Source: Endozoicomonas sp. SCSIO W0465
GTDB lineage: Bacteria; Pseudomonadota; Gammaproteobacteria; Pseudomonadales; Endozoicomonadaceae
DNA: 64,000 nt
Direction: 5' to 3'
Assembly (NCBI RefSeq): GCF_023716865.1
Contig: NZ_CP092417.1
Location: 4,876,862 to 4,940,861 of the forward strand
A program made the translations under genes and the position numbers. Below are positions 5,561 through 21,596 of this stretch, piece by piece (within the stretch, counting starts at the first letter, position 1; each line of letters opens with the position of its first letter). Below the pieces are notes generated by a model that did not search any database, was not told where the DNA came from, and was given only the letters and a program-made list of their open reading frames with translations.

Positions 5561-5652
5561 ATAACCTTTGATAAAAATGCAGTCTACTGATTATTCAATA
5601 GGCTAAAAGCCTTCAGTGATAAAACATTTTCTTATAAACAGTTCTGAAATAT

Positions 5653-5699: not shown

Positions 5700-6501
5700 T
5701 TTTTGTTGATTTTATCCAGTTCATACCAGACAATCCAGCCTAAATCTCAACAGGCAAAAAAGATTCAGGCAATGGGTATCGCAGTACAAAGCCTAAGCAA
5801 GTCCTTTGGTGACCACCAGGTACTGAGGGATATCAGCTTCAGCATCAACAAAGGTGAAACAACCGTATTACTGGGCTCCAGTGGTGCGGGCAAAAGTACG
5901 CTGTTACGCATGCTAAACCTTCTTGAGAGCCCGGATCAAGGCACTCTTAACATAGCTGACATGGCGTTCAGCTTCCCACAGGAGACACCTTCTACAAAGC
6001 GATCTGCAAATGCCTGTCAGCTGAGACGCAAAGTCGGCATGGTCTTCCAGCAATATCACCTTTGGCCACATATGACGGTTCTGGCGAACCTCATGGAAGC
6101 GCCCATACAACAGGGTATGTCCAAAACAGAGGCCAGAGAAAAGGCGATAGGACTACTGGCAAGAATGGGACTGCCGGATAAAGCCAATGCATGGCCCTCT
6201 TCCCTTTCCGGTGGCCAGCAGCAGCGGGTAGCCATTGCCCGGGCGTTAATGCTCTCTCCGGAAGTGTTGCTATTTGACGAACCAACCGCTGCGCTGGACC
6301 CGGCGATTACCAACCAGGTGGTGGAAATCATCAACGAATTGCAGGCCTCTGGCATTACCATGGTCGTGGTAACCCACGAAGTCGAGTTTGCCCGGAAAAT
6401 CGCCAGCCGCGTTGTCTATCCGTCATTCAGCACCCGTATCAGGAATAAATTTCCTGATACGGTCGCCCAAGAATTGAAATAATAGTCAACTGCCTTTCTT
6501 G

Positions 6502-8427
6502 GTACGCCCGGCATGGGCATGAACTGATGGGGTGAAAGTCCCCTGTGGGAGAACCTACATCTGACTGGCGGTAAAGACGCCTGCTGATGACAACCACTAG
6601 CTTAAGGCAAGTGCAGTCCCGCGAGGGGCTGTGCGGAGGCAGTCTGAGTGCAAAGGTGCGAGCCGACGTACAGAAATCGCATATAAGGCTGAGTCTCTGG
6701 GCGAGTGAGCCAAGGATCACAAAGCCCTATGGTTCGTGAGACACGGTAAATGCGGCGGTTGTGCACTGAAAGTTCATGTCCTTATCCGGGGAGATCTGTT
6801 CAACATGCGATTGGTAATTCCCAGTTCTCAGCCACTGGTTACAACAGGCTCGGCGAACAGGTCTCATCATCCTGTTCGAGCAAACCCGATGGCAACCAAT
6901 AGCGCCAGCAGAGGTAACTCCGCGTGGTGATTGGACAGAAGTCAGCAGAGGCCATAGTAGCTGTACGACAGAAGCCATTAACGGATGGGAAGTCGTTAGC
7001 GAAGGGCCGAACATCGACGACAAAGAGGAGACTGATTCCCTCAAGGCGATGCAGCCGTCCGGCGACTCACCGTACTTGGCGACAGAATCTTTAACCAGCT
7101 TTGAACCATGATCTACTAAATTGCGTACTTGAACCGGCTAATCTGGCAAGTGCATGGAAACAGGTCAAAAGCAACAAGGGTGCTCCGGGTATTGATGGAG
7201 TCACTATTGAAGCTTATCCAGACTTTGCCAAACAGCATTGGCCTTCAGTGCGTCAAGCCTTATTGGACGGAACCTACCAGCCATCACCCGTGCGCCGACA
7301 TGTTATAGAAAAGCCGGACGGCGGTGAGCGTTTGCTGGGAATCCCTACCGTGATGGATAGGGTCATACAGCAGGCCATTGTGCAGGTGCTGACCCCTGTC
7401 TTTGATCCGGGTTTCTCTCCAAACAGCTTCGGCTACCGACCGGGACGGTCAGCACACGACGGAGTCCGTCAGGTTAAGCAGTTGATCAACCGGGGGCTTC
7501 ATTACGCTGTTGACGTTGATCTGAGTAAATTCTTTGATACGGTTAATCACGACGTTTTGATGTCGAGGGTCTCCCGTAAGGTCCGCGACAAACGCCTTCT
7601 GAAACTGATTGGTAGCTACCTGCGCTCCGGTGTCATGATTGAGGGCAATGTCTACCCGACCAGGGTTGGCATGCCACAGGGTGGGCCTTTATCACCCTTG
7701 CTGTCTAATGTGGTCCTCGACGAACTCGACAAGGAGCTTGAATATCGGGGTCATTGCTTTGCAAGATACTGTGATGATTTTGTGATTCTCGTCAAAAGTC
7801 AGCGTGCAGGGGATCGGGTGATGCACAGCATTACCCAATTCATTGAACGCAAATTGAAACTGAAGATTAACTCCCGGAAAAGTAAAGTTGTGAAAGCAAC
7901 AGAAAGCGAATTCCTGAGTTTCACCTTCACAGGGAAGAAAGTTCGCTGGGCCCAGAAGTGTCTGGACCGATTCAAATACCGGATACTCAAGTTGACCAGT
8001 CGTCGCTGGGGTGTCTCAATGCAACATCGGTTACGCAAATTGGCACAATATATCCGGGGTTGGATGGGGTATTTCCGGTTATCGGAATATCACCGACCAA
8101 TTCCCCTGCTGGATCAATGGATACGTCGGCGAATCCGTTGCTGCTTTCTGAAGCAATGGCGCAAGCCGAAAACCCGTTTTAAGAATCTGGTCAGGTTAGG
8201 CGTTGATAAAATTAACGCCGCCAAGATCGCAGCCAGCAGCAAAGGGTATTACCGTCTGAGTAAAACCTATGCGGTACAACAGGCACTGAATAACAGTTAC
8301 CTCGCGAAAATTGGGCTTGTTTCATTGAAAGACTTATGGATCAGGTTTCACCATCATCGTTGAACCGCCCGGTGCGGACCCGCATGCCGGGTGCTGTGGG
8401 GAGGGCTGGAGAAAGACCGGCCCTTAC
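6502..8427 (+). mobile_element. bacterial group II intron (ribozyme plus RT/maturase ORF, no En domain)
   Basis: The 5' end GTACGCCCGG... resembles the GUGYG consensus (compare GUGCGCCCAG of Ll.LtrB). The ORF sits where domain IV is expected. After the ORF comes a domain-V-like hairpin (CCCGGTGCG-GACC-CGCATGCCGGG), then a domain-VI-like helix ending ...CTTAC. Boundaries are inferred to within a few nt. Confidence 0.75.
7101..8363 (+). CDS. group II intron reverse transcriptase/maturase
   Basis: RT motifs GAPGIDG, RRHVIEKPDGGERLLGIPTVMDRVIQQA, PQGGPLSPLLSN and YCDDFVIL (YxDD), followed by the maturase X domain (LAQYIRGWMGYF). TTG start. No HNH/En domain at the C-terminus. Confidence 0.9.
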   Translation: MNHDLLNCVLEPANLASAWKQVKSNKGAPGIDGVTIEAYPDFAKQHWPSVRQALLDGTYQPSPVRRHVIEKPDGGERLLGIPTVMDRVIQQAIVQVLTPVFDPGFSPNSFGYRPGRSAHDGVRQVKQLINRGLHYAVDVDLSKFFDTVNHDVLMSRVSRKVRDKRLLKLIGSYLRSGVMIEGNVYPTRVGMPQGGPLSPLLSNVVLDELDKELEYRGHCFARYCDDFVILVKSQRAGDRVMHSITQFIERKLKLKINSRKSKVVKATESEFLSFTFTGKKVRWAQKCLDRFKYRILKLTSRRWGVSMQHRLRKLAQYIRGWMGYFRLSEYHRPIPLLDQWIRRRIRCCFLKQWRKPKTRFKNLVRLGVDKINAAKIAASSKGYYRLSKTYAVQQALNNSYLAKIGLVSLKDLWIRFHHHR

Positions 8428-10007
8428 CCGATTAATCCAACCACATGCTTTTCATGTCCATCGACCAATAGCACGTTGATACCCTGAAAGCAGAAAAACA
8501 CCCAACGCGCTGTCGGGTTTTGGCAGGGTTTCCGCTTCATGTCCGGGAAAAACCGACTCTGTCGTTTTAGCTCATGCCTAATTCGATGCTGAATCGCCGC
8601 ATACACTAACAGACACAGCGTCATCACCATCAGCAAGGCTTCTATTCGTTCCGGTTTCTTTAAAAACAGCGAAGAAACCAGAAACTCCGGGCTCTTCAAA
8701 AACCGAAAGCCACGCTCTACTGACTGTTGTGATTTGTAAGTACTTAGCACTTCTGCTGTACTCAGCCGACTGTCGTCCAGATCATTCGTCGCCAGCACAA
8801 AGCAACCCAGAGAACACTCTGCATCTTTGCGACAGTCAACGGATACCCAAGGATATCCGCTCACATAATATTCAATACTGTCCGGTTTAGAGCCTTTCTC
8901 CGGACGACCTACCTTGGTATAGCAGGGTTTCTCAGTAATGACAGGTTCCGCCTGACAATAAATAGTTTTTGACTGCCATTCATCGAACGCACGCAATGCG
9001 TCGGTTTCACACTTGAAGGCTTTTTTGGCCAGTTTACTGGTCAGCGCTTCTGCTTCTTTCTCAGACTTCTTTAGCATTTTTTTCAGCAGTGTTTTTTGTT
9101 CGCTCTTTCGAGCCTGCTCGCTGCGGACCAGAATCCAGCGCTGGGAGACACCCGCATGATCTGACAGCATTTCATGACTCTCATAGCCCTCAGCACCCTC
9201 CACTGGTGTCATTTCACAAGAAGCGACACTGTCAATCAGTTCTCTGGCTTCTTTGATTTTTGACGGAACCCGGGTGATAAATTGCTGGCCCTGCTGATGA
9301 AGTATCTGTACGTTATCTGTTGTATAAAGTGCTGCATCACCAATCAGGTAGCGATTATTCAGGGCTTCCCGGTAGGATTTCAAATGGCTGCTGATGACTT
9401 TTTTAAAGTTTTTATTGTCGTTTACGTTGCCACTGGACGCTTTCATAAAAACGGGAATACCGGCCTGATTTTCCGTCATCATCAGCAGTATTGCCTGGTT
9501 GAGCTCGGGTCGATGATCCCTGCTGTATCCACGACAGAGTTTGATACAGTGCATATCTTCTTCGTCGACGTCAGATTCGCTGTTATAAACGCCGTCCACA
9601 TGCAAGCTTGTTGAGTCAAGGTTCAGAGCCTTGCACGGCAGTTTTAAGACATTCACTGCCTTGACAGCCAGCGATAAATAGACCTCACTTACATCCAGTT
9701 CAAAAAGCTGATCCAGGGCTCTGCCGAGTACACTGTCGTTAATGTGTTCGGGTTTAATACCGGGCCTGATGAGTTTATCCAGCGGTTTATCAGCATGAAA
9801 CTCCGGGAACATATGAAGCGTGCGGGCAGTGAACCCAAGGCCGTTAAGCAGCATTGATACTACGGTTTCGCCAAAGGAAATATTCCGGTGTTCAGATTGG
9901 TTAGGAACCAGGGAATCCAGATGATTAGAGATACCGAGTTCTTTGCACATACCGGCAACCAAACCCATATGATCGATACGTTGAATGTGGAACTGATGAG
10001 GATGCAT
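8424..10007 (-). CDS. IS1634-family DDE transposase
   Basis: 527 aa. The N-terminus IQRIDHMGLVAGMCKELGI (DUF4277-like) is typical of IS1634-type transposases, and an IS4-superfamily DDE core follows. Its stop codon lies within the last bases of the inferred group II intron 3' end. Confidence 0.85.
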   Translation of the reverse strand: MHPHQFHIQRIDHMGLVAGMCKELGISNHLDSLVPNQSEHRNISFGETVVSMLLNGLGFTARTLHMFPEFHADKPLDKLIRPGIKPEHINDSVLGRALDQLFELDVSEVYLSLAVKAVNVLKLPCKALNLDSTSLHVDGVYNSESDVDEEDMHCIKLCRGYSRDHRPELNQAILLMMTENQAGIPVFMKASSGNVNDNKNFKKVISSHLKSYREALNNRYLIGDAALYTTDNVQILHQQGQQFITRVPSKIKEARELIDSVASCEMTPVEGAEGYESHEMLSDHAGVSQRWILVRSEQARKSEQKTLLKKMLKKSEKEAEALTSKLAKKAFKCETDALRAFDEWQSKTIYCQAEPVITEKPCYTKVGRPEKGSKPDSIEYYVSGYPWVSVDCRKDAECSLGCFVLATNDLDDSRLSTAEVLSTYKSQQSVERGFRFLKSPEFLVSSLFLKKPERIEALLMVMTLCLLVYAAIQHRIRHELKRQSRFFPDMKRKPCQNPTARWVFFCFQGINVLLVDGHEKHVVGLIG

Positions 10008-11000: not shown

Positions 11001-11720
11001 GTGAGCCTGACCGCTCTCTTCGCCCAAGCGACCGTGATGACCCTGGGGCTGGCCCTGTCATCACTGGCCCTTGGCCTGTTAATGGCCATGGCGTTTTCGC
11101 TTGCAGAACTCAGCCGTTACAAACCCCTTGCGCTGGCTGCCAGCACTGTGGTTGCGGTAATGCGCGGGCTTCCGGAAATTCTGGTGGTCTTTTTCATCTA
11201 TTTTGGCTCAACTCATGCGCTATTTCTGGTGACCGATGAGTTTGTTGAGATCAGCCCATTTGTTGCGGGTACTATTGCCCTGTCGTTAATTTATTCGGCC
11301 TACGCCTCACAAACGCTTCGTGGCGCTTTTATGGCTATCCCCAAAGGGCAAACCGAAGCGGCAGTGGCACTGGGGATCAGTCGCAGCCACTGTTTTTTCC
11401 GCATCATCCTGCCGCAGACCTGGCGTCATGCTCTGCCCGGTTTGGGTAACCAATGGCTGGTTCTTCTGAAAGATACTGCGCTGGTCGCCCTGATTGGTGT
11501 CCATGACCTATTGCTCCAGGCCAGGATGACCGCTGCCAGCACCTATGAGCCATTTACCTGGTATGGTGTTGCTGCCTTGATTTACCTGGCAATTACCCTG
11601 ATCAGCCAAAGCGTACTGGAGCGGATGAAATCACGCGCTAATCGACACCTGACTTCCAGTCACAACACTGCTGAAATATCGGTTGAAAAAGCAGTAAGCC
11701 CCAGTGAGGCTACCCCATGA
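11001..11720 (+). CDS. polar amino-acid ABC permease (HisQ/ArtQ-like)
   Basis: GTG start 2 nt after the binding-protein stop. EAA-loop region ([22 protein letters not shown]). Has an unusual ~28-aa C-terminal tail. Confidence 0.85.
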
Positions 11721-11920
11721 ATATGGACTATTTACCGGAGCTGCTGAAAGGTCTTGGAACCACAATGGAACTCACGCTGGCCAGCCTGTTTACCGGGCTC
11801 GTGCTGGCTATCCTGTTCACCACTGTACTTTCCCTGAAAGTAAGGGCTCTGACCTGGCTGGTCAAACTTCAGATTTTACTCTTTACCGGCACGCCACTGC
11901 TGATCCAGATATTTCTGATT

Positions 11921-13032
11921 TAGGACTTACGCATTGACAACAGGCTCTAAAATTTGATAATGCCAAAAAACAGATGTCTTCAGGGATGAAAGTGAGAACT
12001 ACCACTCGACCGACCACTGCACGATGCACTCTTGCAAAATACATTGGCTTTTTGATTAGTGAGCCAAAATCATCAACATGCACAAGACTGGCCGAGGTTA
12101 CCGACTTTTCTCACGATAGCGCAAACCGCTTTCTTAAGCGTGAAAACTATCAGCCCAAAGATATGTACGATGAAGCAGTCAAAAGTTTAAACCCTATTGG
12201 CGGCACCCTGAGCGTTGATGACAGCGTGCTCGACAAACCTTATAGCTACTCCGTGGCACTGGTTGGCCACTTTTGGTCGGGTAAACATCACCGAGTGGTT
12301 AAGGGAGTTAACCTCATCACCCTTTATTACACCGACGTATCCGGGCGCCATATGCCGGTGAATTACAGGATATACGACAAATCGGAAGACAAGACAAAAA
12401 ACGACTACTTCCGTGAAATGTTGATTGAAGTGCTGGTATGGGGGCTGAAGCCAGCGTTCGTTACCGGTGACTCCTGGTACAGCTGCACGACTAACCTGAA
12501 GACGATTAAAAACCATCAGACTGGGTTTATGTTTGCCGTTGAGAAAAACAGGACAGTATCACTGGAAAAAGGTAAATGGCAGCAGGTTCAACACCTCGAC
12601 ATCCCCGACAATGGTCTGGATGTATGGCTCAAAGACTTCGGTAAGATCCGGTTGTTCAGGACGATGCTAAAAGACCAGCGTCGCCACTACGTGGTTTACT
12701 TGCCAGAGGAAGTCCCTTTTGAACGCAATGACTTCAAGCAGATCCATGACCAGCACTGGCAGATCGAACAGTTTCACAGGGCGATCAAGCAGGTTTGCCA
12801 TATTGAGCACTTTCAGGTTCGCAGCGAACGACCCGTCAGAAACCATATATTTGCTGCAATTTTAGCTTTTGTTTATCTCCAGAAAATGCAGATAGAGCAG
12901 GAGTTTACGAATATTTATCAGCACCAACGGGGGCTGTTTAAAGAGACAATAGGCGCTTTCATTGAGAGTTTTGCAAAGGGGAAGGATCACCTCCTACCAA
13001 AATTTATCGGTGTCATCAATGCGTAAGTCCTA
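11921..13032 (+). mobile_element. IS701-family-like insertion sequence (IS4 superfamily)
   Basis: 17-bp perfect IRs TAGGACTTACGCATTGA (11921-11937; reverse complement at 13016-13032). 5-bp TSD TGATT (11916-11920 and 13033-13037). Confidence 0.75.
11974..13026 (+). CDS. DDE transposase (IS701-like)
   Basis: 350 aa filling the IS. C-terminal signature HWQIEQFHRAIKQ. The N-terminal region (RLAEVTDFSHDSANRFL) resembles IS701/DDE_5 transposases. The family assignment is from memory. Confidence 0.75.
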   Translation: MSSGMKVRTTTRPTTARCTLAKYIGFLISEPKSSTCTRLAEVTDFSHDSANRFLKRENYQPKDMYDEAVKSLNPIGGTLSVDDSVLDKPYSYSVALVGHFWSGKHHRVVKGVNLITLYYTDVSGRHMPVNYRIYDKSEDKTKNDYFREMLIEVLVWGLKPAFVTGDSWYSCTTNLKTIKNHQTGFMFAVEKNRTVSLEKGKWQQVQHLDIPDNGLDVWLKDFGKIRLFRTMLKDQRRHYVVYLPEEVPFERNDFKQIHDQHWQIEQFHRAIKQVCHIEHFQVRSERPVRNHIFAAILAFVYLQKMQIEQEFTNIYQHQRGLFKETIGAFIESFAKGKDHLLPKFIGVINA

Positions 13033-13772
13033 TGATTTATTACGGCCCGGCTCAATTTGCTGTCATCAAAAACAGCGTTCTGTGGCCCTGGTTAAGCCAA
13101 CCCTGGTTCTGCGCCATGCTGGCCCTCGCCCTGAACTCAGCCGCCTATTCCACCTTGCTGTTCAAGGGAGCCATTGATGCCGTGCCAAAAAGCGACTGGG
13201 AAGCCTGTATGGCACTGGGCATGACACACAGACAGGCACTGCTGCGGGTTATCCTGCCCCATGCCGCGCGCCGGGCACTCCCAGCCTATGGCAACGAAAT
13301 TATCCTGGTTATGAAAGGTTCATCACTGGCCAGTACCATTACGTTGATGGATTTGATGGGCTATGCAGCCAGACTGAATGCACAAACTTACGACACATTA
13401 ACTGTGTTCACCATGGCCGGCCTGATTTACCTGGCCATGACGGGTGTTATGACAGTATTGATCCGCTTTATGGAACACAAAGTTCTGGCATTCAACCGTT
13501 GACCTGTATTGGCGACTGATGAGAATGCGGCTTTTTCCAGTTCCCCGGGAGCCTGTATCTTTGCATCGCAATGAACCGCTCATTCCGATCCTGGCTATCT
13601 GGATCACAGACCGGTTTTTTACAGATACCTGACTGCTGACTACAATTGTCGGTGGTCATCCGGGTCATTGTTTTCTGGAAACCCATAGAACAACATCATG
13701 GAAACGTCGAAAAGCCTGGCTGACACCTTCCACGGATAAAACAGTCAGGCACATCGGGTACATATTTCAGCA

Positions 13773-14948
13773 ATGATCAAACTAGTGAGTTGTGTGGTAC
13801 CATTTTTCGTTATCATCAGCTATGAGCTGTTGGCCGACAAAAGTCATGCTGACACTGGGGGGGACATTGAAAGTGCTATAGAAAGCGCTATTGAAAGCGT
13901 CGATACGTTTTACGGGACAATATCGCTTGCGGCAATGGAACATGATCAATCACAGCTGCTTTCATCCCTTCTGGTCAACCCGGCGTTCAACAGGCTGAAA
14001 CATATTAACCAGTATGGCCCCATCCAGATGGTGGATTCACAGAACAATAACAATGAACCCTACTCCCGTTATGACCACTCCCTGGGCGTCTTCTATTTGC
14101 TTAACCGTTTCGGTGCATCATTCCCTGAACAGGTCAGTGGCCTGCTCCATGACCTGCCCCACAGCACCTTCAGTCATGTTTCAGACTACCTGTTTTCCGA
14201 CAGTTCAGCAGGCAACCCGGATTATCACGATTCACAGTTCATCCAATTTGTGAATAGCTACAACATTGCCCCCATTCTGAACAGATACCGCCTGTCACCT
14301 GAAATGATAGACCCGAAAAATAATCCCTCGTTTACCCGGCTGGAACGGCCACTGCCAGACCTTGCCGCTGACCGGCTTGATTATATTGTGCAGGGGGCAG
14401 CCAGACGAAAAAAGCTTACCGATCAACAGGTAGGCACTATTCTGGCCGATCTTTTCTTTGACCCGCTATCGAAACACTGGTATTTCAGAAGTCAGGAATC
14501 CGCACGGCTAACTGCCGATGCCAGCATTGAGCTGAACAGGCATATTTTTGTTACCGCCTGGGGACGGGTTCTCTATCTCTGGACAGCCGAGGCCCTGAAA
14601 CAGCTGGTTATGACAGGAGAACTGCAGCCCGATGATCTTTTTTTTACCATGGGTGACGATCAGGTCTGGCAAAAAATACACCAAAGCACCTTGCCCGCTG
14701 TGCGGATATTAGCTGCGCAGATGCTGACAGCCTGGCATAAGGTACATGAGGTCACCCAACCGGGGGCAAATACCATCACCTTTGAAAATGTCCGCTGTCG
14801 TATTGTTGACCCAAGAGTGGTAACCACCCGTTGTGGCAACCGGGTGACTGGCTGGCTGCGTGTTTCAGATATCGACCCGGCATTCAGGGACCGTTATCTT
14901 ACCGAACTGAAACGATGCCAGCTTTTCTATGCGGAGATTGAGCCATGA
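13773..14948 (+). CDS. HD-domain metal-dependent phosphohydrolase with an N-terminal hydrophobic leader
   Basis: Motifs YSRYDHSLGV ... GLLHDLPHSTFSH ... ADRLDY (the H...HD...D arrangement of the HD superfamily). N-terminus MIKLVSCVVPFFVIISYELLA. Contains an IESA x3 tandem repeat. Confidence 0.7.
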   Translation: MIKLVSCVVPFFVIISYELLADKSHADTGGDIESAIESAIESVDTFYGTISLAAMEHDQSQLLSSLLVNPAFNRLKHINQYGPIQMVDSQNNNNEPYSRYDHSLGVFYLLNRFGASFPEQVSGLLHDLPHSTFSHVSDYLFSDSSAGNPDYHDSQFIQFVNSYNIAPILNRYRLSPEMIDPKNNPSFTRLERPLPDLAADRLDYIVQGAARRKKLTDQQVGTILADLFFDPLSKHWYFRSQESARLTADASIELNRHIFVTAWGRVLYLWTAEALKQLVMTGELQPDDLFFTMGDDQVWQKIHQSTLPAVRILAAQMLTAWHKVHEVTQPGANTITFENVRCRIVDPRVVTTRCGNRVTGWLRVSDIDPAFRDRYLTELKRCQLFYAEIEP

Positions 14949-14959: not shown

Positions 14960-16348
14960 TCAAAAGGCAGCAAAATCATAGTCAAGCCAGATACGCAAGT
15001 CATTCTCCTCTTTATTAATGGCCTGACGTAAGGCCGGGTCATTATGGTACAGTCCGAATTTCAGTTTGAAGGTTAACCCTTTCGGCAGAGGCTCCGGTAA
15101 ATACCAGACCATAAAGACATCATGTTCATACTCTGAAACTCTTACCTGTCGCTGCTCACTTGTGGTTACTCTCATGCCGCTACCATAATGGAAAGCATAC
15201 CCTGCGTTCAGGCCCTTGATTCCGAAAGATGAAAAGTCATAAGTGATCCCCGCTTTCATAACTGTTTCACCGTCGTACATCATATCTTCTGCTATACCAT
15301 TGGTGTGGATATTCCAGAAACCATGGGTATTGGCTCCCAGATCGTAATAGTACGAACCCGGCGGGGCATAACCGCTTATACCGTACTTTAAAACAGAAGA
15401 ACGGGCATTATAGTGACTGATGGCAGCGTCAAAAGACCAGCCTGAGGGCATACTCAGACGACCATGTACATTGATCACACTGGCATAATCATCGAACAGA
15501 GGACTGCCTCCCCAGCCGGTCCCCTGCCATAAGTCACCGTCTTTTTCAGTGTGGAAATAACGGACACCGAGGGAAAGATCCCGGCCAGAATCCAAAAATG
15601 TCGTCAGCAGAACATCCAGATTGTGGGCCTGAAGATAGTCTTTGGCAAAGCCATTTCGATATGCCAGAAATAATTCACTGTCTGCCAGCACGGGCATCCG
15701 ATAAAAAACTTCGCCACCGATAATATAATCGATTACCTGATTCTGTTCCGGATTCTGTTCCGGGAAATTGGTCAGCCGGTGAAAACCCGCCTGATTCCGC
15801 AACGACATGCGATTCACCAGAGCGAGCCCAAGCTGCAGATTGCCCGCTGCCATTTTCAGGTTATAGCCCTGCCAGCTACTGGGTACACTTCTTGAACTGG
15901 AGCCGGAAATCAATCCCGTTTTCAAAATTTGCCGGCCAATCGTCAAACTGACAAGGTCCTTGTCACTCTCGGATAAAGGCACCTGCAACCGGACATAAGC
16001 CTGCCCCAGCTTGGCAAAACCTTCATTGGCATCGTTCAGCAACTGGTAAGAGCATCGGCTGGAACAGCCATCTGAATCAGCCAATTCCAACCGGGCAACG
16101 CTAAAAAAACCGGCTCCCAGGACAAGATCGTCAGTTAATGGAGTGATCTGGCCATCGAGCCAAAGCGCTGTCGTCCATGCTCCGGTACGCTTATTAGTCT
16201 CCAGATTGTCCACATTGTAGAAAACCGTTCGCAGCTTTCCGTCAAGCTCCAGTAGCTGCGCATCAGTCGCTGCGGCATCCCCATGGGCAGAAAAATTGAA
16301 CAGGGAGAGGGATAAAAACCAGGCCACAACGCATGGATAGAGTCTCAT
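14960..16348 (-). CDS. outer-membrane porin, OprD-family-like
   Basis: Signal peptide, 462 aa, alternating beta-strand pattern rich in Y/G/D/N, C-terminal ...DYDFAAF. Size and composition fit OprD-type porins. Confidence 0.65.
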   Translation of the reverse strand: MRLYPCVVAWFLSLSLFNFSAHGDAAATDAQLLELDGKLRTVFYNVDNLETNKRTGAWTTALWLDGQITPLTDDLVLGAGFFSVARLELADSDGCSSRCSYQLLNDANEGFAKLGQAYVRLQVPLSESDKDLVSLTIGRQILKTGLISGSSSRSVPSSWQGYNLKMAAGNLQLGLALVNRMSLRNQAGFHRLTNFPEQNPEQNQVIDYIIGGEVFYRMPVLADSELFLAYRNGFAKDYLQAHNLDVLLTTFLDSGRDLSLGVRYFHTEKDGDLWQGTGWGGSPLFDDYASVINVHGRLSMPSGWSFDAAISHYNARSSVLKYGISGYAPPGSYYYDLGANTHGFWNIHTNGIAEDMMYDGETVMKAGITYDFSSFGIKGLNAGYAFHYGSGMRVTTSEQRQVRVSEYEHDVFMVWYLPEPLPKGLTFKLKFGLYHNDPALRQAINKEENDLRIWLDYDFAAF

Positions 16349-16535: not shown

Positions 16536-18044
16536 TCATTCCATATGCTTCTTATCTGTGATTTCCGAAAATCGCCTGCCCAACGACCGGGCAGATGCAA
16601 TCCAGACCGCGAAGAAGCAGAGGACAATCACCGCAACGTAGGGTGCAATGGCAGACAGTGACCCCAACATCACCATCAATACCTGCTGTATCAGTGAGCC
16701 CGTTGATTTCCCGGTGGGATTACCAATAATATCCACGGCAGCCTTACCCTTTACCTTTTGTTCCGGCGTCAGGGGGATATAACTCATCTCCTTGGTGGGA
16801 TCGAACAACGCGTATTTGGTCGATTTACTCAAAATATTTTGTATTGCCCCCAAAATAACTGTCAGCATTAGTGGTGCCACCCCCAGGGTAAGCATCAGGC
16901 TTTCAGGCAACCAGTCCCGGAACAGGACAAAACAGAAAAACAGAGACCCGGTGATCAATAATATTACCGGTGTACACAGTGCCGCGAATGTCCAGCCAAA
17001 ATAGCGGATCACATTGTTTGTAAGAAACAGCATCATCAAGATCGTCACCAACCCGGTGCAGGTTGAAAACAGTCCCATAAACTGATTGTAATTGTTCGGG
17101 TCAGGAAACTGCATGCGGAGCTGATTTTTCCAGGTAACCTCCACCATGTTGATGCACACCCCATAACTGATCACCAGCAGGGCAATGCACAAGAGATATC
17201 TGGAATGAATAATCATTTTGAAGCTGTCACGCAGGGACAGGCTCAGTTTTTCATTGGCTGGCTCATGGCTGCCCAGCTGATGGTATAAGCCGGGGTCACT
17301 CAGGACGTAACGATTCATCCACCAGTAAATCAAAATAATCAAAACCCCACCCAACGTCAGCACACCGGTCATCAGATTAAGGGAATAACCCCAGCAATCC
17401 ACCCCTTCGGGCAGGTTCTCCCTGACTCCGGAGGCCACGTAGACAAAATAGCCTGCGGTGGGAAGCGCCAGATTCCCCATCATGCCAAACAAGGCATAAA
17501 ACCGTTTTGACTCGGCAATGGTGTTGATATGATTGGCAAATCCCCAGAACAGCATGGACAGGCAGACACTGCCCCATAACTCCGACATAACATAAAACAG
17601 GGAGAAGGTCCAGTTACGCATCACCGCAATCAGGCCCTTGAACCCCGGTGGTAAAACACTTTGCAGGTAATCCGATGAGGCATGAAAATGAAGACTATCC
17701 CGGTTGGGGTAGAGCCAGAGGGCAAAAAAAACAAAGAAAAGGATAAATGTGGCTATAACCAGGTAAAAAAGGGTATTCCTCCTGACCAGGTTACTCATTC
17801 GCGAATAAATCAGGGTAAACCCGATGGCAAAAGGAACATTAACCCAGAGTTTCAGAAATGGAATAATTTCGGCACCGGAACCGGCACCGGTGACGACCAG
17901 GGTATCTTTAGTATCCCTGAGAATCGTATAATTAAAAAGAATCAGGTAAAACATCAAAATCATCGGAATAAGCTTTTTCAACTCATGACTGTGAACCGGC
18001 CAGAACCGCTCCCGCCATTTGCCAAACTCAGGATCAGAACTCAT
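16536..18044 (-). CDS. nucleotide transporter (NTT family; ATP/ADP translocase Tlc/Npt-like)
   Basis: 502 aa with about 12 TM segments. The N-terminus WPVHSHELKKLIPMILMFYLILFNYTILRDTKDTLVVTGAGSGAEIIPFLKLW is closely collinear with my recollection of chlamydial Npt1 and rickettsial Tlc N-termini. Confidence 0.85.
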   Translation of the reverse strand: MSSDPEFGKWRERFWPVHSHELKKLIPMILMFYLILFNYTILRDTKDTLVVTGAGSGAEIIPFLKLWVNVPFAIGFTLIYSRMSNLVRRNTLFYLVIATFILFFVFFALWLYPNRDSLHFHASSDYLQSVLPPGFKGLIAVMRNWTFSLFYVMSELWGSVCLSMLFWGFANHINTIAESKRFYALFGMMGNLALPTAGYFVYVASGVRENLPEGVDCWGYSLNLMTGVLTLGGVLIILIYWWMNRYVLSDPGLYHQLGSHEPANEKLSLSLRDSFKMIIHSRYLLCIALLVISYGVCINMVEVTWKNQLRMQFPDPNNYNQFMGLFSTCTGLVTILMMLFLTNNVIRYFGWTFAALCTPVILLITGSLFFCFVLFRDWLPESLMLTLGVAPLMLTVILGAIQNILSKSTKYALFDPTKEMSYIPLTPEQKVKGKAAVDIIGNPTGKSTGSLIQQVLMVMLGSLSAIAPYVAVIVLCFFAVWIASARSLGRRFSEITDKKHME

Positions 18045-18473
18045 TCAGAAACCTCCAAAACAAATAACGTCTCCCCTTTAACGGTCAAAAAGAGACCGCA
18101 GATAAACAAACCCGGAAGTCCACTATCAATTTGGAAACCTGTTGATGAGCCATGTTCAGCCCATCACCGGAGGAGGTTACCGGAGAAAAACACTCCCTGA
18201 CCCCTCTATTCAACCTTGAAAGAACAGTTAAAATAATGGTTATTCCAATCAATTACCAGCGGCAAAAAAAAAACAAAATAAAAAACTTTATACGCTGTTT
18301 CATTCGGACAAACAAATCATCAAAGCATTAAATTCAGGTAAAAAAACTCCAAATAAATCATCATTCATTTTCATAAGAAAACTAAAAATATAAAGAATAA
18401 ATATTTATCACCAACATGCTCATTACAGCCTACTTTGAATGGTTAGACATTTATCACTCCGGTTTTTATCTCA

Positions 18474-21400
18474 ATGAAAACAAGTTATTGTTGTATTCGT
18501 ATTATTCTGTTTTTATGCATCTCAATTACTGGCTCGCTTCTGTATTCAGTTTCAGGGGTCGCGGCAACAGCCCATCGGGCTGAAGCTGAATGGCCAATGC
18601 AAGCGCAGCCTGATAGAAACGAAGGGATCAGTCGTCTGGTGAACACGCTGAAAACAGCGGTTGCCTGGGGCCTGGTTCCATTAAGTTCGGAAATCGCCCT
18701 GAACATCAGCAAGGATTATTTAAAACGGAATCGTTATGCCTTTCTATTAAGCTTACTCGCCATCCACGGCAGTAATATCCGGCGATCAACCAGCCAGCAT
18801 CTGACCGATAATCTCAGCGCCCGGCTGGAAAGCTTCAGTTACAAAACGCTTTCGGACGAACACCTGAAAAAGCAGACCGATGATCTGCAAACCGACCTTC
18901 TGTTCCGTTCCCTGTTTACTTTTTCCATTCTTAGCATGAATGCCCAGAAAGCGAGAAAAACCTATTTCCGCCTGCAGGACATTCTTGACAATATCGCCTC
19001 CACCGCCAGACTCGCCCTGATTGATGGTGATCATGACCAGGCCAGTGCAATGCTTGCCCTTGCCGCACAGACCATGGTTTACATTCATCCCGAAGCCAGG
19101 GCCAGTGACGGGGCTGACAGTATCAAAACCCACTTCAATTATCGTATTGACTGGTCCGGGATGCCGGAATTTCGAACCGATCTCCAGCGCCATCTGCAAA
19201 GCATGGACCCACTGGTCAGACGTTCAACATTGATTAACCTGCGTTACTGCGATCTCCTGAATCAGTGGCAGATCAGTTATCAGGACTGCAGCCCCTATGA
19301 AAAGGGTGCCATAGCGGAGCTGGAGGGCATGGCCATCATGGCCGAAAAGGAGACAGAACCAGGGATCATCCAGTCCGCCCTCAAAGGTATTCCTGAGCAA
19401 CATATCAGAAATTCCATTTTCATTATGGGGGTTTCGGTCCCGGCAGTAATTCTCTATTTCCTGAACAAAAAGGAGTCGCCGGTTATCTACACGGTAGTTG
19501 ACCATTTTGCCAAGGTAACCGGCATGGCAACCACCAAATCAACCATTGAACGGCTCTCCTCCAATACCCGCCGAAGTCTTGAAAACTGGGGTGCCATTGA
19601 TACCGGCAAAGGGAGTTCATCATCTCCGACCGGGGAATTTGCCAACCATTATTTTAATACCCTGCAAAAAAATGCCACCGCCATTCTCGCCGAACAGCCC
19701 AACTTTGCCCGCTCCAATGCCCAGCGTGCCCTGGAGGCCCTGGTCGTTAATCTGGCAGAAGCCTTCAGCCTGCAGCGGGTCAATGATAATCCGGCCAGCG
19801 CTGATCTTCTGGCCGCAGCGCTGGTGCAGAATTACCGGGAAAACGTTGAAGTCACCCATGATGACAGTCTGATCCGTTCAACCCTGCTGGCCTATCGGCC
19901 ACTGCATAATCAGGAATTGATCCCTGAGGTCATTGAGGCCCTGAAAATTCTCGAACCTGAATACAAAACCAAACAAAAGGTGAGGCAGTGGTATCAGCAA
20001 CAACTGGCAGCCTGGCACAGACTTTCGTCACCGGATAGCCCGGAACAGGATCTGCCTGATTTCCCCGATATACCCTGGATCAGTCAGGTTCCTCTGCTGC
20101 CTCCCGGGAACCAAAACCCGGCCAGCTCTGCCAGCTGGTATCAGAGCTACCTTCCGGACAAGGAAACCATATCCACGATGACCATCCACGGTACTGCCCT
20201 GAGCTATTCAATACTGGTCGCCATCCTTGAACCCCTGACTATCGAGCGGCTAATGGCTGGCCAGCCATCATACTGGCATCTGGCGTCCTACTACCTGTTA
20301 GCCTCCATGTTCGATTTTGGCCTGCGCTCCCTGGGTGAACCGGCAATTGTGCACCTGCAAACGGTGATCAAAAACGGGATTGGCAGCACCACGGGTATTC
20401 TGTCACCAGAGGACAAACAAATTCAGGACGAACTGGCCAATAAAGTCAATGTTCTCAACCGGAAGCTCAGTATTGAAGCCCAGACCAGCCGATCATACCG
20501 TGCGACACTGGAAGCCCTGCTAACCCGCTACTGGAGCCTGTCCAGTCATCTGTTGGCTCACGTTGAACAGTACCCGCAGTCCCAGGCTGCTGCCATGTTG
20601 GCCCTGGCTGCCTACACCCAGCGTTATTTTCACGCCGAATTTACTGAAGACAACCTGGTAATGAAAACCCTGGCAGTGGCAAGACTGAAGTCAGGCTTTG
20701 ACCTACTCAGGGAGCAGGGTGAAATTCAGAACTTCACCCGGCAGGTTTTTGCAGCCCTGAAAGCTCTGGATCCCTCGTTAGCCAAACAGGACATCAGAAA
20801 TATTTACCTGAAAATACTGAAAAGCTGGGGCCTTAACCTTGAAATACAGACGTTGGCCGAATCACAGGACGTACTGGATACCTGGGCCTCCTATGGTGAT
20901 TACCTGCTGGGAGCAGTAGGATTTTCCACCCAGGCCATGGTAAAAGCACTCGTCCATGGCAATGAAGTGATCAGCCGGTCAATGGCCAATTTCTTTGTCA
21001 ATATTTTTGAATACGGAACTACTGATTCACTAAGGAAGAAGATTTACGCCTGGTCCCGGTTGAAAATGCTCAATGTCGTCTCCTTCTACCCGGAGGAAGA
21101 AATGATCGGTGTCAATTTTGCCAATACGGAAATGACCGACTCATTTCGCCGCCAGAAATTCTATTTTGGCAAACCGGAACTGGATATGCGGACACAATTG
21201 ATCCAGATTATCACTGCTATTGCCAACGGTTATTATCAGGCAATCATCCAGATTGATGCTGACCGCCAGAGCGATGATGTGATCGATCGGGGAACGCTGA
21301 ATAATGTGGAAAACTTGCTGGCTCTCACCGTTCTCCGGCTGGTTCTGTTTGCACCGGATCTGGCCGCCGATGACCTGTATATCCTGCAATCGATCAGCAT

Positions 21401-21596
21401 ACTGTCACTGCCCATCAGGGATGAGCTGCCTCCCATGCGTGAGCCCATCATCGCCAAAATAAAAACAGCCCTTGACTCTCTGGCAGTTGACGACAAGAGT
21501 CTGATAGAAGATTGTATGAATAAGGCAATGTTGATTATCGATAACTGGCTTCAGTCGCCTCAAGAGAGTACCTTCTCGGATACTGTCCCTGAATAA
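18474..21596 (+). CDS. large hypothetical secreted/membrane protein (orphan)
   Basis: 1040 aa. N-terminal signal-like segment (IRIILFLCISITGSLLYSVSGVAA) and several internal hydrophobic segments. Recurring helical module (ASAMLALAAQT / ADLLAAALVQN / AAAMLALAAYT). Preceded by a strongly AT-rich 270-bp region. Confidence 0.5.
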   Translation: MKTSYCCIRIILFLCISITGSLLYSVSGVAATAHRAEAEWPMQAQPDRNEGISRLVNTLKTAVAWGLVPLSSEIALNISKDYLKRNRYAFLLSLLAIHGSNIRRSTSQHLTDNLSARLESFSYKTLSDEHLKKQTDDLQTDLLFRSLFTFSILSMNAQKARKTYFRLQDILDNIASTARLALIDGDHDQASAMLALAAQTMVYIHPEARASDGADSIKTHFNYRIDWSGMPEFRTDLQRHLQSMDPLVRRSTLINLRYCDLLNQWQISYQDCSPYEKGAIAELEGMAIMAEKETEPGIIQSALKGIPEQHIRNSIFIMGVSVPAVILYFLNKKESPVIYTVVDHFAKVTGMATTKSTIERLSSNTRRSLENWGAIDTGKGSSSSPTGEFANHYFNTLQKNATAILAEQPNFARSNAQRALEALVVNLAEAFSLQRVNDNPASADLLAAALVQNYRENVEVTHDDSLIRSTLLAYRPLHNQELIPEVIEALKILEPEYKTKQKVRQWYQQQLAAWHRLSSPDSPEQDLPDFPDIPWISQVPLLPPGNQNPASSASWYQSYLPDKETISTMTIHGTALSYSILVAILEPLTIERLMAGQPSYWHLASYYLLASMFDFGLRSLGEPAIVHLQTVIKNGIGSTTGILSPEDKQIQDELANKVNVLNRKLSIEAQTSRSYRATLEALLTRYWSLSSHLLAHVEQYPQSQAAAMLALAAYTQRYFHAEFTEDNLVMKTLAVARLKSGFDLLREQGEIQNFTRQVFAALKALDPSLAKQDIRNIYLKILKSWGLNLEIQTLAESQDVLDTWASYGDYLLGAVGFSTQAMVKALVHGNEVISRSMANFFVNIFEYGTTDSLRKKIYAWSRLKMLNVVSFYPEEEMIGVNFANTEMTDSFRRQKFYFGKPELDMRTQLIQIITAIANGYYQAIIQIDADRQSDDVIDRGTLNNVENLLALTVLRLVLFAPDLAADDLYILQSISILSLPIRDELPPMREPIIAKIKTALDSLAVDDKSLIEDCMNKAMLIIDNWLQSPQESTFSDTVPE

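What the first reader, a model, noticed from the sequence alone, without database searches (positions are those of the whole stretch)
16536..18044. Chlamydia/Rickettsia-type nucleotide transporter (ATP/ADP translocase) in a gammaproteobacterial context
The 502-aa, ~12-TM product begins ...WPVHSHELKKLIPMILMFYLILFNYTILRDTKDTLVVTGAGSGAEIIPFLKLW. This is almost motif-for-motif the N-terminus I recall for chlamydial Npt1 and related NTTs.

NTTs import host ATP or other nucleotides and are hallmarks of obligate or facultative intracellular bacteria and plastids. They are uncommon in free-living Gammaproteobacteria.

The gene's presence next to a porin gene, in a genome fragment full of eukaryote-like genes, suggests energy or nucleotide parasitism and an intracellular phase.
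Basis: partly seen in the sequence, partly recalled or inferred. Interest (0 to 1): 0.65.

Follow-up and report, generated by a model that had tools for sequence, protein, structure and literature searches.

The report
Chlamydia-type ATP/ADP transporter in Endozoicomonas
The gene is a genuine, already-annotated chlamydia-type ATP/ADP transporter in the coral-associated bacterium Endozoicomonas sp. SCSIO W0465, kept under strong selection across the family, and in this lineage it sits beside an outer-membrane porin and an exported phosphohydrolase that also look nucleotide-related.

Summary
Window 16536..18044 (-) encodes a 502-aa full-length TLC/NTT transporter: Pfam PF03219 670 bits, TIGR00769 634 bits, and a predicted fold with TM 0.85-0.93 to solved ATP/ADP translocators. 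The four essential transmembrane charges are intact.

The window is Endozoicomonas sp. SCSIO W0465. The exact protein is deposited as USE34761.1, "NTP/NDP exchange transporter", so its identity is not new.

Orthologs form one Endozoicomonadaceae clade (bootstrap 97.5-100%). dN/dS is 0.03-0.07 and composition is native, so this is an old, maintained acquisition. The protein is closest to characterised chlamydial Npt1-type ATP/ADP exchangers (53-56% identity; clade HMM 765 bits versus 623 or less). The deep branching order, and hence the donor, is unresolved.

I found no paper discussing an NTT in Endozoicomonas.

New here: the adjacent OprD-like porin belongs to an Endozoicomonas-only subfamily. 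Its other members lie beside 5'-nucleotidase, deo, nupC and tsx genes. Its NTT-linked clade (94% bootstrap) sits directly downstream of the NTT in all six loci checked. The next conserved gene is an exported SAMHD1-like HD phosphohydrolase.

Most likely function: import of host ATP in exchange for ADP+Pi. This is inferred, not shown.

The parts
16536..18044 (-). NTT/TLC nucleotide transporter CDS (502 aa). It equals USE34761.1 / WP_252018748.1, 'NTP/NDP exchange transporter', Endozoicomonas sp. SCSIO W0465.
   Evidence: ORF. PF03219 669.8 bits and TIGR00769 633.8 bits. PDB 9j3n 584 bits and 9j3j 501 bits. AF2 model with TM 0.85-0.93 to solved NTT structures. K65/E155/E302/K446 conserved. Exact sequence on record.
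18052..18056 (-). Shine-Dalgarno site GGAGG, 7 nt upstream of the NTT start codon.
   Evidence: Read directly from the sequence. It is the only leader element conserved in all eight aligned orthologous leaders.
18069..18096 (-). 10-bp hairpin followed by a T-rich run in the NTT 5' leader. Its function is unknown.
   Evidence: Terminator-like consensus hit. No Rfam family matches the leader. It is conserved only in the closest relatives.
14960..16348 (-). OprD-family outer-membrane porin (462 aa, USE34760.1), 187 bp downstream of the NTT on the same strand. Candidate outer-membrane nucleotide channel.
   Evidence: PF03573 57.8 bits. Endozoicomonas-only subfamily of 39 proteins. The NTT-linked clade has 94% bootstrap. 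TLC followed by OprD on the same strand in the window, L008, L009, L010, L090 and L091. Paralogous members lie next to 5'-nucleotidase, deo, nupC and tsx genes. No terminator-like site in the NTT-porin gap.
13773..14948 (+). Exported HD-domain phosphohydrolase (391 aa), SAMHD1/dNTPase-like, convergent with the NTT-porin pair and syntenic with the NTT in many orthologous loci.
   Evidence: PF01966 in 9 of 9 orthologs. The profile hits only dNTP-triphosphohydrolase-type HD proteins: 2hek 9.4e-9, SAMHD1 6e-8, 2o6i 2e-6. H102, H126-D127 and D200/D203 are invariant. A hydrophobic signal-peptide-like N-terminus is conserved in all orthologs. Synteny.
18474..21596 (+). 1040-aa orphan protein, transcribed divergently from the NTT. 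It belongs to an Endozoicomonas-restricted family with no recognisable domain.
   Evidence: No Pfam or NCBIfam hit. 29 homologs, all from Endozoicomonas and all 'hypothetical'. Adjacent to the NTT in L001-L005, L007-L010, L019, L090 and L091.

Best explanation
The gene encodes an inner-membrane nucleotide transporter of the NTT/TLC family (TC 2.A.12). Its type is that of chlamydial Npt1 and plastid NTT1. Its most likely activity is electroneutral counter-exchange of external ATP for internal ADP plus phosphate. This would let Endozoicomonas draw on host-cell ATP while it lives inside animal tissue. An ancestor of the Endozoicomonadaceae acquired the gene long ago from a Chlamydiae-like source, and it has since been inherited vertically under strong purifying selection. 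In the lineage that includes this window, the NTT forms a conserved two-gene unit with a specialised OprD-type outer-membrane porin, which probably lets nucleotides reach the periplasm. Shown here: family membership, fold, essential residues, class-level similarity, clade monophyly, selection and gene linkage. Inferred: substrate, exchange mode, physiological direction, and the role of the porin.
For: Full-length TLC and TIGR00769 matches far above the curated cutoffs. 53% identity to C. pneumoniae NTT1 and 49% to AtNTT1, both solved as ATP/ADP translocators. The AF2 model (pTM 0.82) superposes at TM 0.85/0.87 on ATP-bound CpNTT1 and at 0.89/0.93 on ADP/Pi-bound AtNTT1, while generic MFS proteins reach 0.71 or less at 9-14% identity. 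The four transmembrane charges essential in AtNTT1 (K155, E245, E385, K527; Trentmann et al. 2000, recalled from memory, with numbering validated by a consistent +1 offset) are K65, E155, E302 and K446 here. The best characterised relatives are all ATP/ADP exchangers: SnNTT1 56%, CtNpt1 55%, PamNTT1 53%. H+-coupled importers score lower: PamNTT3 47%, CtNpt2 37%. Clade HMM scores are 765 bits for the Npt1 type, 623 for plastid NTT1 and 592 or less for all other clades. 84% of the columns invariant in five class-I exchangers are retained, against 57-74% in other classes. The Endozoicomonadaceae clade is monophyletic at 97.5-100% bootstrap over 22 loci. dN/dS is 0.03-0.07 against about 0.2 for neighbouring genes, and GC/GC3 are native. 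Synteny is conserved. For the porin: the NTT-linked clade, adjacency in 6 of 6 checked loci with gaps of 44-190 bp, and paralogs embedded in nucleotide and nucleoside salvage clusters.
Against: No transport assay exists for any Endozoicomonadaceae NTT. NTT substrate range and coupling mode are not reliably predictable from phylogeny; from my own knowledge, diatom NTT1 groups with plastid exchangers yet is H+-coupled, and CtNpt1 also carries NAD. My NJ trees do not resolve the deep position of the clade: the class-I versus rest split gets only 3-25% support, and the clade is not nested in the sampled chlamydial Npt1 clade, which is itself monophyletic at 70%. PamNTT2, RpTlc1, RpTlc4 and RpTlc5 were not available as references. 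The organism is a large-genome (7.2 Mb) bacterium with its own metabolism, and whether its cells ever contact host cytosolic ATP is not established here. The porin is absent from the closest relatives (E. acroporae group, L001-L005, L007) and from the E. elysicola group, so it is not obligatory for NTT function.
Confidence: 0.65

Rival explanations
1. It is an NTT, but its physiological role is nucleotide or cofactor acquisition rather than energy parasitism. Examples would be broad NTP/NDP exchange, dNTP or NAD transport, or H+-driven net import. In this reading it feeds a nucleotide-salvage economy together with the porin and the exported HD hydrolase.
For: The neighbours are salvage-flavoured. 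The porin subfamily is otherwise linked to 5'-nucleotidase, deo, nupC and tsx genes, and the HD neighbour resembles dNTP triphosphohydrolases. NCBI's own name is the generic 'NTP/NDP exchange transporter'. The clade is a distinct deep branch outside the sampled chlamydial Npt1 clade. From my own knowledge, specificity shifts are common among NTT paralogs.
Against: Sequence, clade-HMM and invariant-column comparisons all favour the Npt1/NTT1 ATP/ADP exchanger type by a wide margin. An exchanger gives no net nucleotide gain.
Confidence: 0.2
2. The NTT works as proposed, but the porin and HD genes are merely neighbours with unrelated functions, for example an OprD/ChiP-like sugar or amino-acid channel. 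There is then no envelope-spanning module.
For: The porin is missing from the closest relatives and from the E. elysicola group, which carries a discoidin/GATase gene there instead. One subfamily clade sits beside LacI, PTS and amylase genes. There is a weak NCBIfam hit to chitoporin ChiP. Only about 14 neighbourhoods were sampled. Members of the NTT-linked clade may share adjacency simply by descent.
Against: NTT-porin adjacency persists in 6 of 6 checked loci while the genes further downstream differ completely (SMC-like, histone deacetylase, HD), with gaps as short as 44 bp. A 5'-nucleotidase lies directly next to the porin in three differently flanked loci. None of 58 non-Endozoicomonadaceae NTT loci carries such a porin, so the pairing is lineage-specific rather than generic.
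Confidence: 0.45
3. The transporter runs in the opposite physiological direction or in another setting. It might export bacterial ATP to the host, as a mutualist provisioning like an organelle, or scavenge extracellular ATP released in mucus or damaged tissue while the bacterium is extracellular.
For: From my own knowledge, exchangers are reversible and direction follows the gradients. Endozoicomonas is usually regarded as beneficial and can grow without a host. Major et al. 2017 note that NTTs occur in free-living organisms.
Against: From my own knowledge, all characterised bacterial Npt1-type proteins import ATP in vivo, and extracellular ATP in seawater is orders of magnitude below typical NTT affinities. 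No data here favour export.
Confidence: 0.08
4. It is a decaying or non-functional relic of an old horizontal transfer.
For: Ca. Endonucleobacter, a relative, is reported to lack TLC genes (PMC11521996). One ortholog has G at the E245-equivalent position.
Against: The ORF is intact, has a good Shine-Dalgarno site and keeps all essential residues. dN/dS is 0.03-0.07, lower than for the neighbouring genes. The gene is conserved in 22 loci across the family.
Confidence: 0.02

Closest known systems
Chlamydial Npt1 / NTT1 ATP/ADP translocases (C. trachomatis Npt1, C. pneumoniae NTT1 [PDB 9j3n/9j3o], Protochlamydia PamNTT1, Simkania SnNTT1)
   Same: Same family and same length. 53-56% identity over the whole protein. 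Same predicted 12-helix fold (TM 0.85-0.87). All essential charges conserved. Highest clade-HMM score.
   Different: The host is a large-genome (7.2 Mb) gammaproteobacterium, not an obligate intracellular bacterium with a reduced genome. It forms its own deep clade rather than nesting in the sampled chlamydial clade. It is paired with an OprD-type porin, which none of the 58 non-Endozoicomonadaceae NTT loci has. It has not been characterised experimentally.
Plastid NTT1 (Arabidopsis AtNTT1, PDB 9j3j/9j3l/9j3m)
   Same: 49% identity, TM 0.89-0.93 to the ATP- and ADP/Pi-bound states, and the K155/E245/E385/K527 equivalents are conserved. The first NJ tree weakly groups the two clades (24%).
   Different: Eukaryotic, plastid envelope, with a transit peptide. 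Lower clade-HMM score (623 against 765). The grouping is unsupported (11-24%).
NTTs of other facultative or obligate intracellular Proteobacteria (Lawsonia NTT1, Caedibacter NTT1, Rickettsia Tlc proteins; Legionella shakespearei, Ca. Berkiella and Francisellaceae homologs)
   Same: Same family, acquired horizontally by host-associated Proteobacteria.
   Different: Only 32-47% identical, and they fall in other clades. The Endozoicomonadaceae gene is therefore an independent acquisition, not shared gammaproteobacterial ancestry.
OprD/Occ specific porins and the Tsx nucleoside channel (for the neighbouring porin)
   Same: The porin passes the Pfam OprD cutoff. Like Tsx, its subfamily is genomically tied to deo and nup genes.
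   Different: To my knowledge, no OprD-family channel has been shown to carry nucleotides or nucleosides. This subfamily is restricted to Endozoicomonas, and one clade of it is coupled to an NTT.

Membership tests
NTT / TLC nucleotide transporter family (PF03219, TIGR00769, TC 2.A.12) | Full-length match to the family profiles above the curated cutoffs | tested here: met
   PF03219 669.8 bits (cutoff 21), covering residues 3-492 on profile 4-491/491. TIGR00769 633.8 bits (cutoff 387.2).
NTT / TLC nucleotide transporter family (PF03219, TIGR00769, TC 2.A.12) | MFS-like all-helical membrane fold matching the solved NTT structures | tested here: met
   AF2 model with pLDDT 78 and pTM 0.82. Foldseek TM 0.85-0.93 to 9j3n, 9j3m and 9j3l; the next-best MFS proteins score 0.71 or less. 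The crude hydropathy count was not precise.
NTT / TLC nucleotide transporter family (PF03219, TIGR00769, TC 2.A.12) | Four transmembrane charged residues essential for transport in AtNTT1 (K155, E245, E385, K527) | tested here: met
   These map to K65, E155, E302 and K446 in the window protein. They are conserved in 21-22 of 22 Endozoicomonadaceae sequences and in 103 of 104 sequences overall. The residue list is from memory of Trentmann et al. 2000; the numbering offset was checked.
NTT / TLC nucleotide transporter family (PF03219, TIGR00769, TC 2.A.12) | Demonstrated nucleotide transport | not testable with these tools
   Requires radiolabelled uptake assays in E. coli or proteoliposomes.
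Class-I ATP/ADP(+Pi) counter-exchangers (Npt1 / NTT1 type) | Closest similarity to characterised exchangers rather than to H+-coupled or other-specificity paralogs | tested here: met
   Identity: SnNTT1 56%, CtNpt1 55%, PamNTT1 53%, against PamNTT3 47%, CtNpt2 37% and RpTlc2/3 32-37%. Clade HMMs: 765 bits against 623 or less. 84% of class-I invariant columns are kept.
Class-I ATP/ADP(+Pi) counter-exchangers (Npt1 / NTT1 type) | Supported phylogenetic placement inside the exchanger clade | tested here: inconclusive
   In the first NJ tree the clade attaches next to the plastid and chlamydial class-I sequences, but the class-I versus rest split has only 25% support there. In the second analysis it has 3% support and is absent from the point tree. 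No ML software was available. PamNTT2 and RpTlc1/4/5 were not included.
Class-I ATP/ADP(+Pi) counter-exchangers (Npt1 / NTT1 type) | Obligatory counter-exchange, ATP/ADP specificity, phosphate as co-substrate | not testable with these tools
   Biochemical property. The paper on the solved structures was not in the searchable library, so binding-site residues could not be compared.
OprD family porin (PF03573), neighbouring gene 14960..16348 | Profile match above the cutoff over the whole barrel | tested here: met
   57.8 bits (cutoff 25), residues 35-460 on profile 9-393/394. PGAP name 'OprD family outer membrane porin'.
OprD family porin (PF03573), neighbouring gene 14960..16348 | Substrate specificity (here hypothesised to be nucleotides) | not testable with these tools
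   Only genomic association is available.
dNTP triphosphohydrolase-type HD proteins (SAMHD1 / EF1143 / Dgt), neighbouring gene 13773..14948 | HD metal-binding motif H...HD...D | tested here: met
   H102, H126-D127 and D200/D203 are invariant in 9 orthologs. PF01966 is found in 9 of 9.
dNTP triphosphohydrolase-type HD proteins (SAMHD1 / EF1143 / Dgt), neighbouring gene 13773..14948 | Homology beyond the HD core (full catalytic domain, allosteric sites) | tested here: inconclusive
   Profile hits (2hek 9.4e-9, SAMHD1 6e-8) cover only about 120 residues of the HD core. No HD_assoc domain was detected. I therefore call it 'dNTPase-like' and do not file it as a member.

The most novel reading that the evidence does not exclude
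In one Endozoicomonas lineage the NTT is the inner-membrane part of an envelope-spanning system for harvesting host nucleotides. A dedicated OprD-derived outer-membrane channel was recruited from a porin subfamily that otherwise serves 5'-nucleotidase and deo nucleoside salvage. It admits ATP and other nucleotides to the periplasm, where the NTT exchanges them across the inner membrane. An exported SAMHD1-like HD phosphohydrolase acts on nucleotides outside the cytoplasm. If true, this would be the first OprD-type nucleotide channel and the first NTT-porin operon. It would also mean that the flagship 'beneficial' coral symbiont genus practises facultative energy parasitism.
Probability: 0.3. 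Interest if true: 0.72.

Novelty: new member of a known kind. Interest (0 to 1): 0.5.

Why it matters
Endozoicomonas is the most widely reported bacterial associate of corals and many other marine invertebrates, and it is usually described as a nutritional mutualist. A chlamydia-type ATP/ADP exchanger that is conserved and strongly selected across the family implies that these bacteria can tap host-cell ATP. That bears on whether they live intracellularly and on the cost they impose on the host.

I found no paper in the searchable open-access literature that discusses this. One study of coral cell-associated aggregates mentions ATP/ADP translocases only for the co-resident Simkania, although the Endozoicomonas MAG Pac_F2a from that work carries an ortholog (88% identity; L006).

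Some Endozoicomonas species are culturable, so the genus may offer a tractable system for studying what an NTT does in a bacterium that is not metabolically dependent on its host. The NTT-porin linkage also suggests an answer to a neglected question: how charged nucleotides cross the outer membrane to reach an NTT.

Tried and rejected
1. Riboswitch or conserved leader RNA upstream of the NTT. There were no Rfam hits even at E<=1. The alignment of eight orthologous leaders shows conservation only among near relatives, plus the Shine-Dalgarno site. Dropped. The hairpin at 18069-18096 remains unexplained.

2. Promoter and terminator scans. Counts did not exceed the shuffled controls. The only usable result is the absence of a terminator-like site between the NTT and the porin.

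3. Donor inference. NJ with Kimura-corrected distances and 200 bootstraps, run twice with different alignments and with rogue taxa removed. This gives robust clade monophyly, but the deep nodes have 3-25% support. I do not claim a specific donor, nor a sister relationship with plastid NTTs.

4. Comparison of ligand-binding residues with the 2025 cryo-EM structures. The paper is not in the searchable library, so only the older mutagenesis residues were mapped.

5. Literature on an Endozoicomonas NTT. I ran seven phrase combinations and read three candidate papers. None attributes an NTT to Endozoicomonas. The E. elysicola sequence appears only in the supplementary FASTA of Major et al. 2017.

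6. The exact-protein look-up in the gene-position index returned nothing, although the sequence is in the protein collection. That was an index gap, not an absence.

7. The idea that the 501-aa gene downstream of the NTT in the E. elysicola group is a diverged porin. Rejected: it is an F5/8-type-C plus GATase protein.

8. Hydropathy counting of transmembrane segments was too crude (13 overlapping peaks). The structure model replaced it.
Full report
OBSERVATION. A GGAGG Shine-Dalgarno site lies 7 nt upstream of the start codon. It matches Pfam TLC (PF03219) end to end at 669.8 bits (cutoff 21) and NCBIfam TIGR00769 'NTP/NDP exchange transporter' at 633.8 bits (cutoff 387.2). The only solved structures it hits by sequence are the two ATP/ADP translocators released in 2025: C. 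pneumoniae NTT1 (9j3n, 584 bits) and Arabidopsis NTT1 (9j3j, 501 bits). The downstream gene on the same strand, 14960..16348, is an OprD-family porin.

ORGANISM AND PRIOR ANNOTATION. Homologs at 71-96% identity all come from Endozoicomonas or Kistimonas. Identity then steps down to about 55-58%, where the named records are mostly Chlamydiae. The neighbouring 1040-aa protein is 100% identical to a protein of Endozoicomonas sp. SCSIO W0465 on a 7.22-Mb contig. An exact-sequence look-up shows the NTT itself is USE34761.1 / WP_252018748.1, 'NTP/NDP exchange transporter', and the porin is USE34760.1, 'OprD family outer membrane porin', from the same genome. So the identity of the gene is already in the public record. 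The E. elysicola ortholog (WP_033402749.1) is in the supplementary FASTA of Major et al. 2017 (PMC5381601) but is not mentioned in their text.

Seven full-text searches combining 'Endozoicomonas' with the usual names for this transporter found no paper that attributes an NTT to the genus. The Ca. Endonucleobacter study states that this relative lacks TLC importers (PMC11521996). The coral-aggregate study mentions ATP/ADP translocases only for the co-resident Simkania, although the Endozoicomonas MAG Pac_F2a from that work has an ortholog at 88% identity (L006). A Bugula metagenome paper assigns its ATP carrier to a Rickettsiales bin.

WHAT KIND OF NTT. I took characterised reference sequences from the Major et al. 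supplement and the two PDB chains.

- By identity, the window protein is closest to proven ATP/ADP exchangers: SnNTT1 56%, CtNpt1 55%, PamNTT1 53%, CpNTT1 53%, AtNTT1 49%. It is more distant from H+-coupled importers (PamNTT3 47%, CtNpt2 37%) and from rickettsial Tlc2/3 (32-37%).
- HMMs built from each clade, with the Endozoicomonadaceae sequences left out, give 765 bits for the chlamydial Npt1 type, 623 for plastid NTT1 and 592 or less for every other clade. Seven other family members give the same ranking.
- Of 193 alignment columns invariant in five characterised class-I exchangers, the window protein keeps 84%. Other classes keep 57-74%.
- Mutagenesis showed four transmembrane charges to be essential in AtNTT1: K155, E245, E385 and K527 (recalled from Trentmann et al. 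2000). Every recalled position fell exactly one residue before a K, E, E and K in Q39002.2, which validates both the recollection and a +1 numbering offset. These map to K65, E155, E302 and K446 here and are conserved throughout.
- An AlphaFold2 model (pLDDT 78, pTM 0.82) superposes on ATP-bound CpNTT1 at TM 0.85/0.87 and on ADP/Pi-bound AtNTT1 at 0.89/0.93. Generic MFS transporters follow at 0.71 or less and 9-14% identity.

PHYLOGENY AND EVOLUTION. In NJ trees of 101-104 NTTs, the 22 Endozoicomonadaceae sequences form one clade with 97.5-100% bootstrap. These include E. acroporae, E. elysicola, E. atrinae, Ca. E. cretensis, Kistimonas and several MAGs. In the first tree the clade attaches among the class-I sequences, next to plastid NTT1 and the chlamydial Npt1 type. 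The deep nodes are unsupported (3-25%). The sampled chlamydial Npt1 clade is itself monophyletic at 70% with the Endozoicomonadaceae outside it. I therefore conclude an ancient, single acquisition from a Chlamydiae-like gene pool and do not name a donor.

The gammaproteobacterial NTTs of Legionella shakespearei, Ca. Berkiella and Francisellaceae are only 45-47% identical and fall elsewhere in the tree. So the gene does not reflect shared gammaproteobacterial ancestry.

The gene is strongly constrained. dN/dS is 0.03-0.07 against five orthologs, compared with 0.19-0.21 for the two flanking genes over the same species pair. Its GC (0.477) and GC3 (0.596) are within the range of housekeeping genes in the window. 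It is a long-resident, maintained gene, not a recent island. The surrounding window is nevertheless rich in IS elements and carries a group II intron.

NEIGHBOURHOOD. Two conserved contexts exist.

- In the lineage of the window, the order is: 1040-aa orphan (divergent), NTT, OprD-like porin, HD-domain gene (convergent). The orphan and the NTT are adjacent in L001-L005, L007-L010, L019, L090 and L091. The porin is present in the window, L008, L009, L010, L017 (there split by a frameshift), L090 and L091. It has been cleanly lost in the closest relatives, L001-L005 and L007.
- In the E. elysicola/atrinae/cretensis group, the NTT instead lies between a MerR regulator and a discoidin/GATase gene.

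THE PORIN. This is the part I did not expect. The porin belongs to a subfamily of 39 proteins found only in Endozoicomonas. I sampled eight neighbourhoods of members that are not NTT-linked:

- Five contain nucleoside or nucleotide genes next to the porin. These are nupC-deoC-deoA-deoD followed by two porins (L081); deoA-deoC upstream with a UshA-type 5'-nucleotidase immediately downstream (L082/L083); tsx with deoD-deoB-deoA (L085); a 5'-nucleotidase with an ABC transporter and a phosphodiesterase (L087); and a 5'-nucleotidase (L088).
- One is sugar-related (L086).
- Two are uninformative (L084, L089).

In a tree of the subfamily rooted on its most distant member, the nucleotidase-, tsx- and deo-linked members are basal. 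The NTT-linked porins form a derived clade with 94% bootstrap. All six members of that clade whose context I could read lie directly downstream of a TLC gene on the same strand, with gaps of 44-190 bp, while the genes beyond them differ. No terminator-like site lies in the 187-bp gap in the window. An HMM of the subfamily finds no such porin beside any of the 58 non-Endozoicomonadaceae NTT loci.

The simplest reading is that this subfamily passes nucleosides or nucleotides across the outer membrane, and that one branch was recruited to serve the NTT. This rests on genomic association only. The sample is small, and adjacency within the NTT-linked clade could partly reflect common descent.

THE HD NEIGHBOUR. 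The gene at 13773..14948 (+) has an HD domain. A profile of nine orthologs hits only dNTP-triphosphohydrolase-type HD proteins in the PDB: Aquifex 2hek at 9.4e-9, SAMHD1 at about 6e-8 and E. faecalis EF1143 at 2e-6. These matches cover only the roughly 120-residue HD core. The H...HD...D motif is invariant. All orthologs carry a hydrophobic, signal-peptide-like N-terminus whose sequence is not conserved, as expected of an export signal. An exported dNTPase-like hydrolase beside an NTT and a nucleotide-associated porin is suggestive, but I do not file it as a dNTPase.

MECHANISM. Most likely (confidence 0.65), the protein is an inner-membrane ATP/ADP(+Pi) antiporter that imports host ATP when the bacterium is inside animal tissue, with the porin, where present, providing outer-membrane access.

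- Shown: family, fold, catalytic charges, class-level similarity, monophyly, selection and linkage.
- Inferred: substrate, coupling mode, direction, localisation and the function of the porin.

The main rival (0.2) is that the transporter handles other nucleotides or NAD, or is H+-coupled, and serves salvage rather than energy. The salvage-type neighbours give this some weight, and NTT specificity is known to shift between close relatives. Export or extracellular scavenging (0.08) and a non-functional relic (0.02) are unlikely. Whether the porin and HD genes are functional partners at all is roughly even odds.

VERDICT. The identity is not new: the gene is correctly annotated in GenBank and its ortholog appears in a 2017 dataset. 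This analysis adds four things.

- The NTT is a family-wide, strongly selected trait of Endozoicomonadaceae, forming its own deep clade nearest the Npt1 type.
- I found no discussion of it in the open-access literature on this much-studied symbiont genus.
- In one lineage it is coupled to an Endozoicomonas-specific OprD-type porin whose relatives sit in nucleotide-salvage clusters.
- It also lies beside an exported SAMHD1-like HD protein.

I rate it a new member of a known kind, interest 0.5. The module hypothesis would deserve about 0.7 if confirmed (probability about 0.3).

Noticed in passing
window 6615-8363 (+): A group II intron. Rfam matches D1-D4 RNA domains at 6615-6780 and 6903-7007, followed by a reverse-transcriptase/maturase ORF at 7101-8363 (RVT_1 + GIIM). 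It sits directly after an ABC ATPase gene (5616-6482).
   Followed up: partly
window 11001-13502 (+): An amino-acid ABC permease gene appears to be split by an IS insertion. The BPD_transp_1 N-terminal part is at 11001-11720, a DDE_Tnp_1 transposase at 11974-13026, and the BPD_transp_1 C-terminal part at 13032-13502. The operon next to the NTT cluster is probably inactivated.
   Followed up: partly
window 27010-28050 (+) and 34533-35573 (+): Two IS1595-family (ISXO2-like) transposase ORFs of identical length (346 aa) and identical Pfam scores, 7.5 kb apart. They are probably two copies of one IS, flanking topoisomerase III, an SPFH/Band-7 gene and another DDE transposase. More transposases lie at 8424-10007 and 33020-34297.
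   Followed up: no
window 63158-63994 (-), 49352-51040 (-), 38949-39827 (-): Eukaryote-like or effector-like genes: a SET-domain protein (26.8 bits, cutoff 22.4), a 562-aa protein with a weak RING-finger hit (below cutoff) and a patatin-like phospholipase. Related loci carry a clear RING-finger gene (L019:11683-12144) and a HopA1-type effector (L018:3999-4997) right beside their NTT.
   Followed up: partly
window 18474-21596 (+), 55437-58937 (+), 59506-62943 (-): Three very large ORFs (1040, 1166 and 1145 aa) with no credible domain. The first belongs to a family found only in Endozoicomonas (29 proteins, all 'hypothetical') and is conserved divergently next to the NTT. The third gives only scattered sub-threshold hits that look like low-complexity noise.
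   Followed up: partly
L001 (NZ_JAGHQW010000049.1) and protein P0157: Assemblies labelled 'Salinisphaera sp. G21_0' and 'Thalassotalea sp. G20_0' carry an NTT in the same 90%-identity cluster as the window's (L001 is 96% identical). L001 also has the same orphan-NTT-HD synteny as E. acroporae. These records are probably mislabelled or contaminated Endozoicomonas assemblies.
   Followed up: partly
L008 and L016 (both MAG 'Endozoicomonas sp. MAGCC1'); protein P0152 (Endozoicomonas sp. GU-1): One MAG carries two NTT loci in the two different genomic contexts (85% and 72% identity to the window). This means either two strains binned together or two paralogs. Strain GU-1 has two protein accessions for one identical NTT sequence, which suggests a duplicated locus.
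   Followed up: no
L017:2886-4230 (+): The NTT-linked porin of the uncultured gammaproteobacterium LS06H_Bin2 is split into two overlapping ORFs (2886-3818 and 3718-4230). This is either a frameshift pseudogene or an assembly error.
   Followed up: no
L065, L068, L069, L070, L073, L079 (Parachlamydiaceae); L072 (Ca. Berkiella); L074 (an alphaproteobacterium): Each of these loci holds two NTT paralogs within 10 kb. In the Parachlamydiaceae loci one copy groups with PamNTT3 and the other falls in a separate, 100%-supported clade. This is a conserved pair of NTT genes.
   Followed up: no
window 18069-18096 (-): A 10-bp hairpin followed by a T-rich run lies 25-52 nt upstream of the NTT start codon, inside the leader. 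It matches no Rfam family and is conserved only in the nearest relatives. It could be an attenuator or could be chance.
   Followed up: partly
window 37511-38980 (+): A second, cytoplasmic-type HD protein with an HD_assoc domain (dGTPase/dNTP triphosphohydrolase architecture). It overlaps the 3' end of the convergent patatin gene by about 30 nt. It is unrelated in position to the NTT cluster.
   Followed up: no
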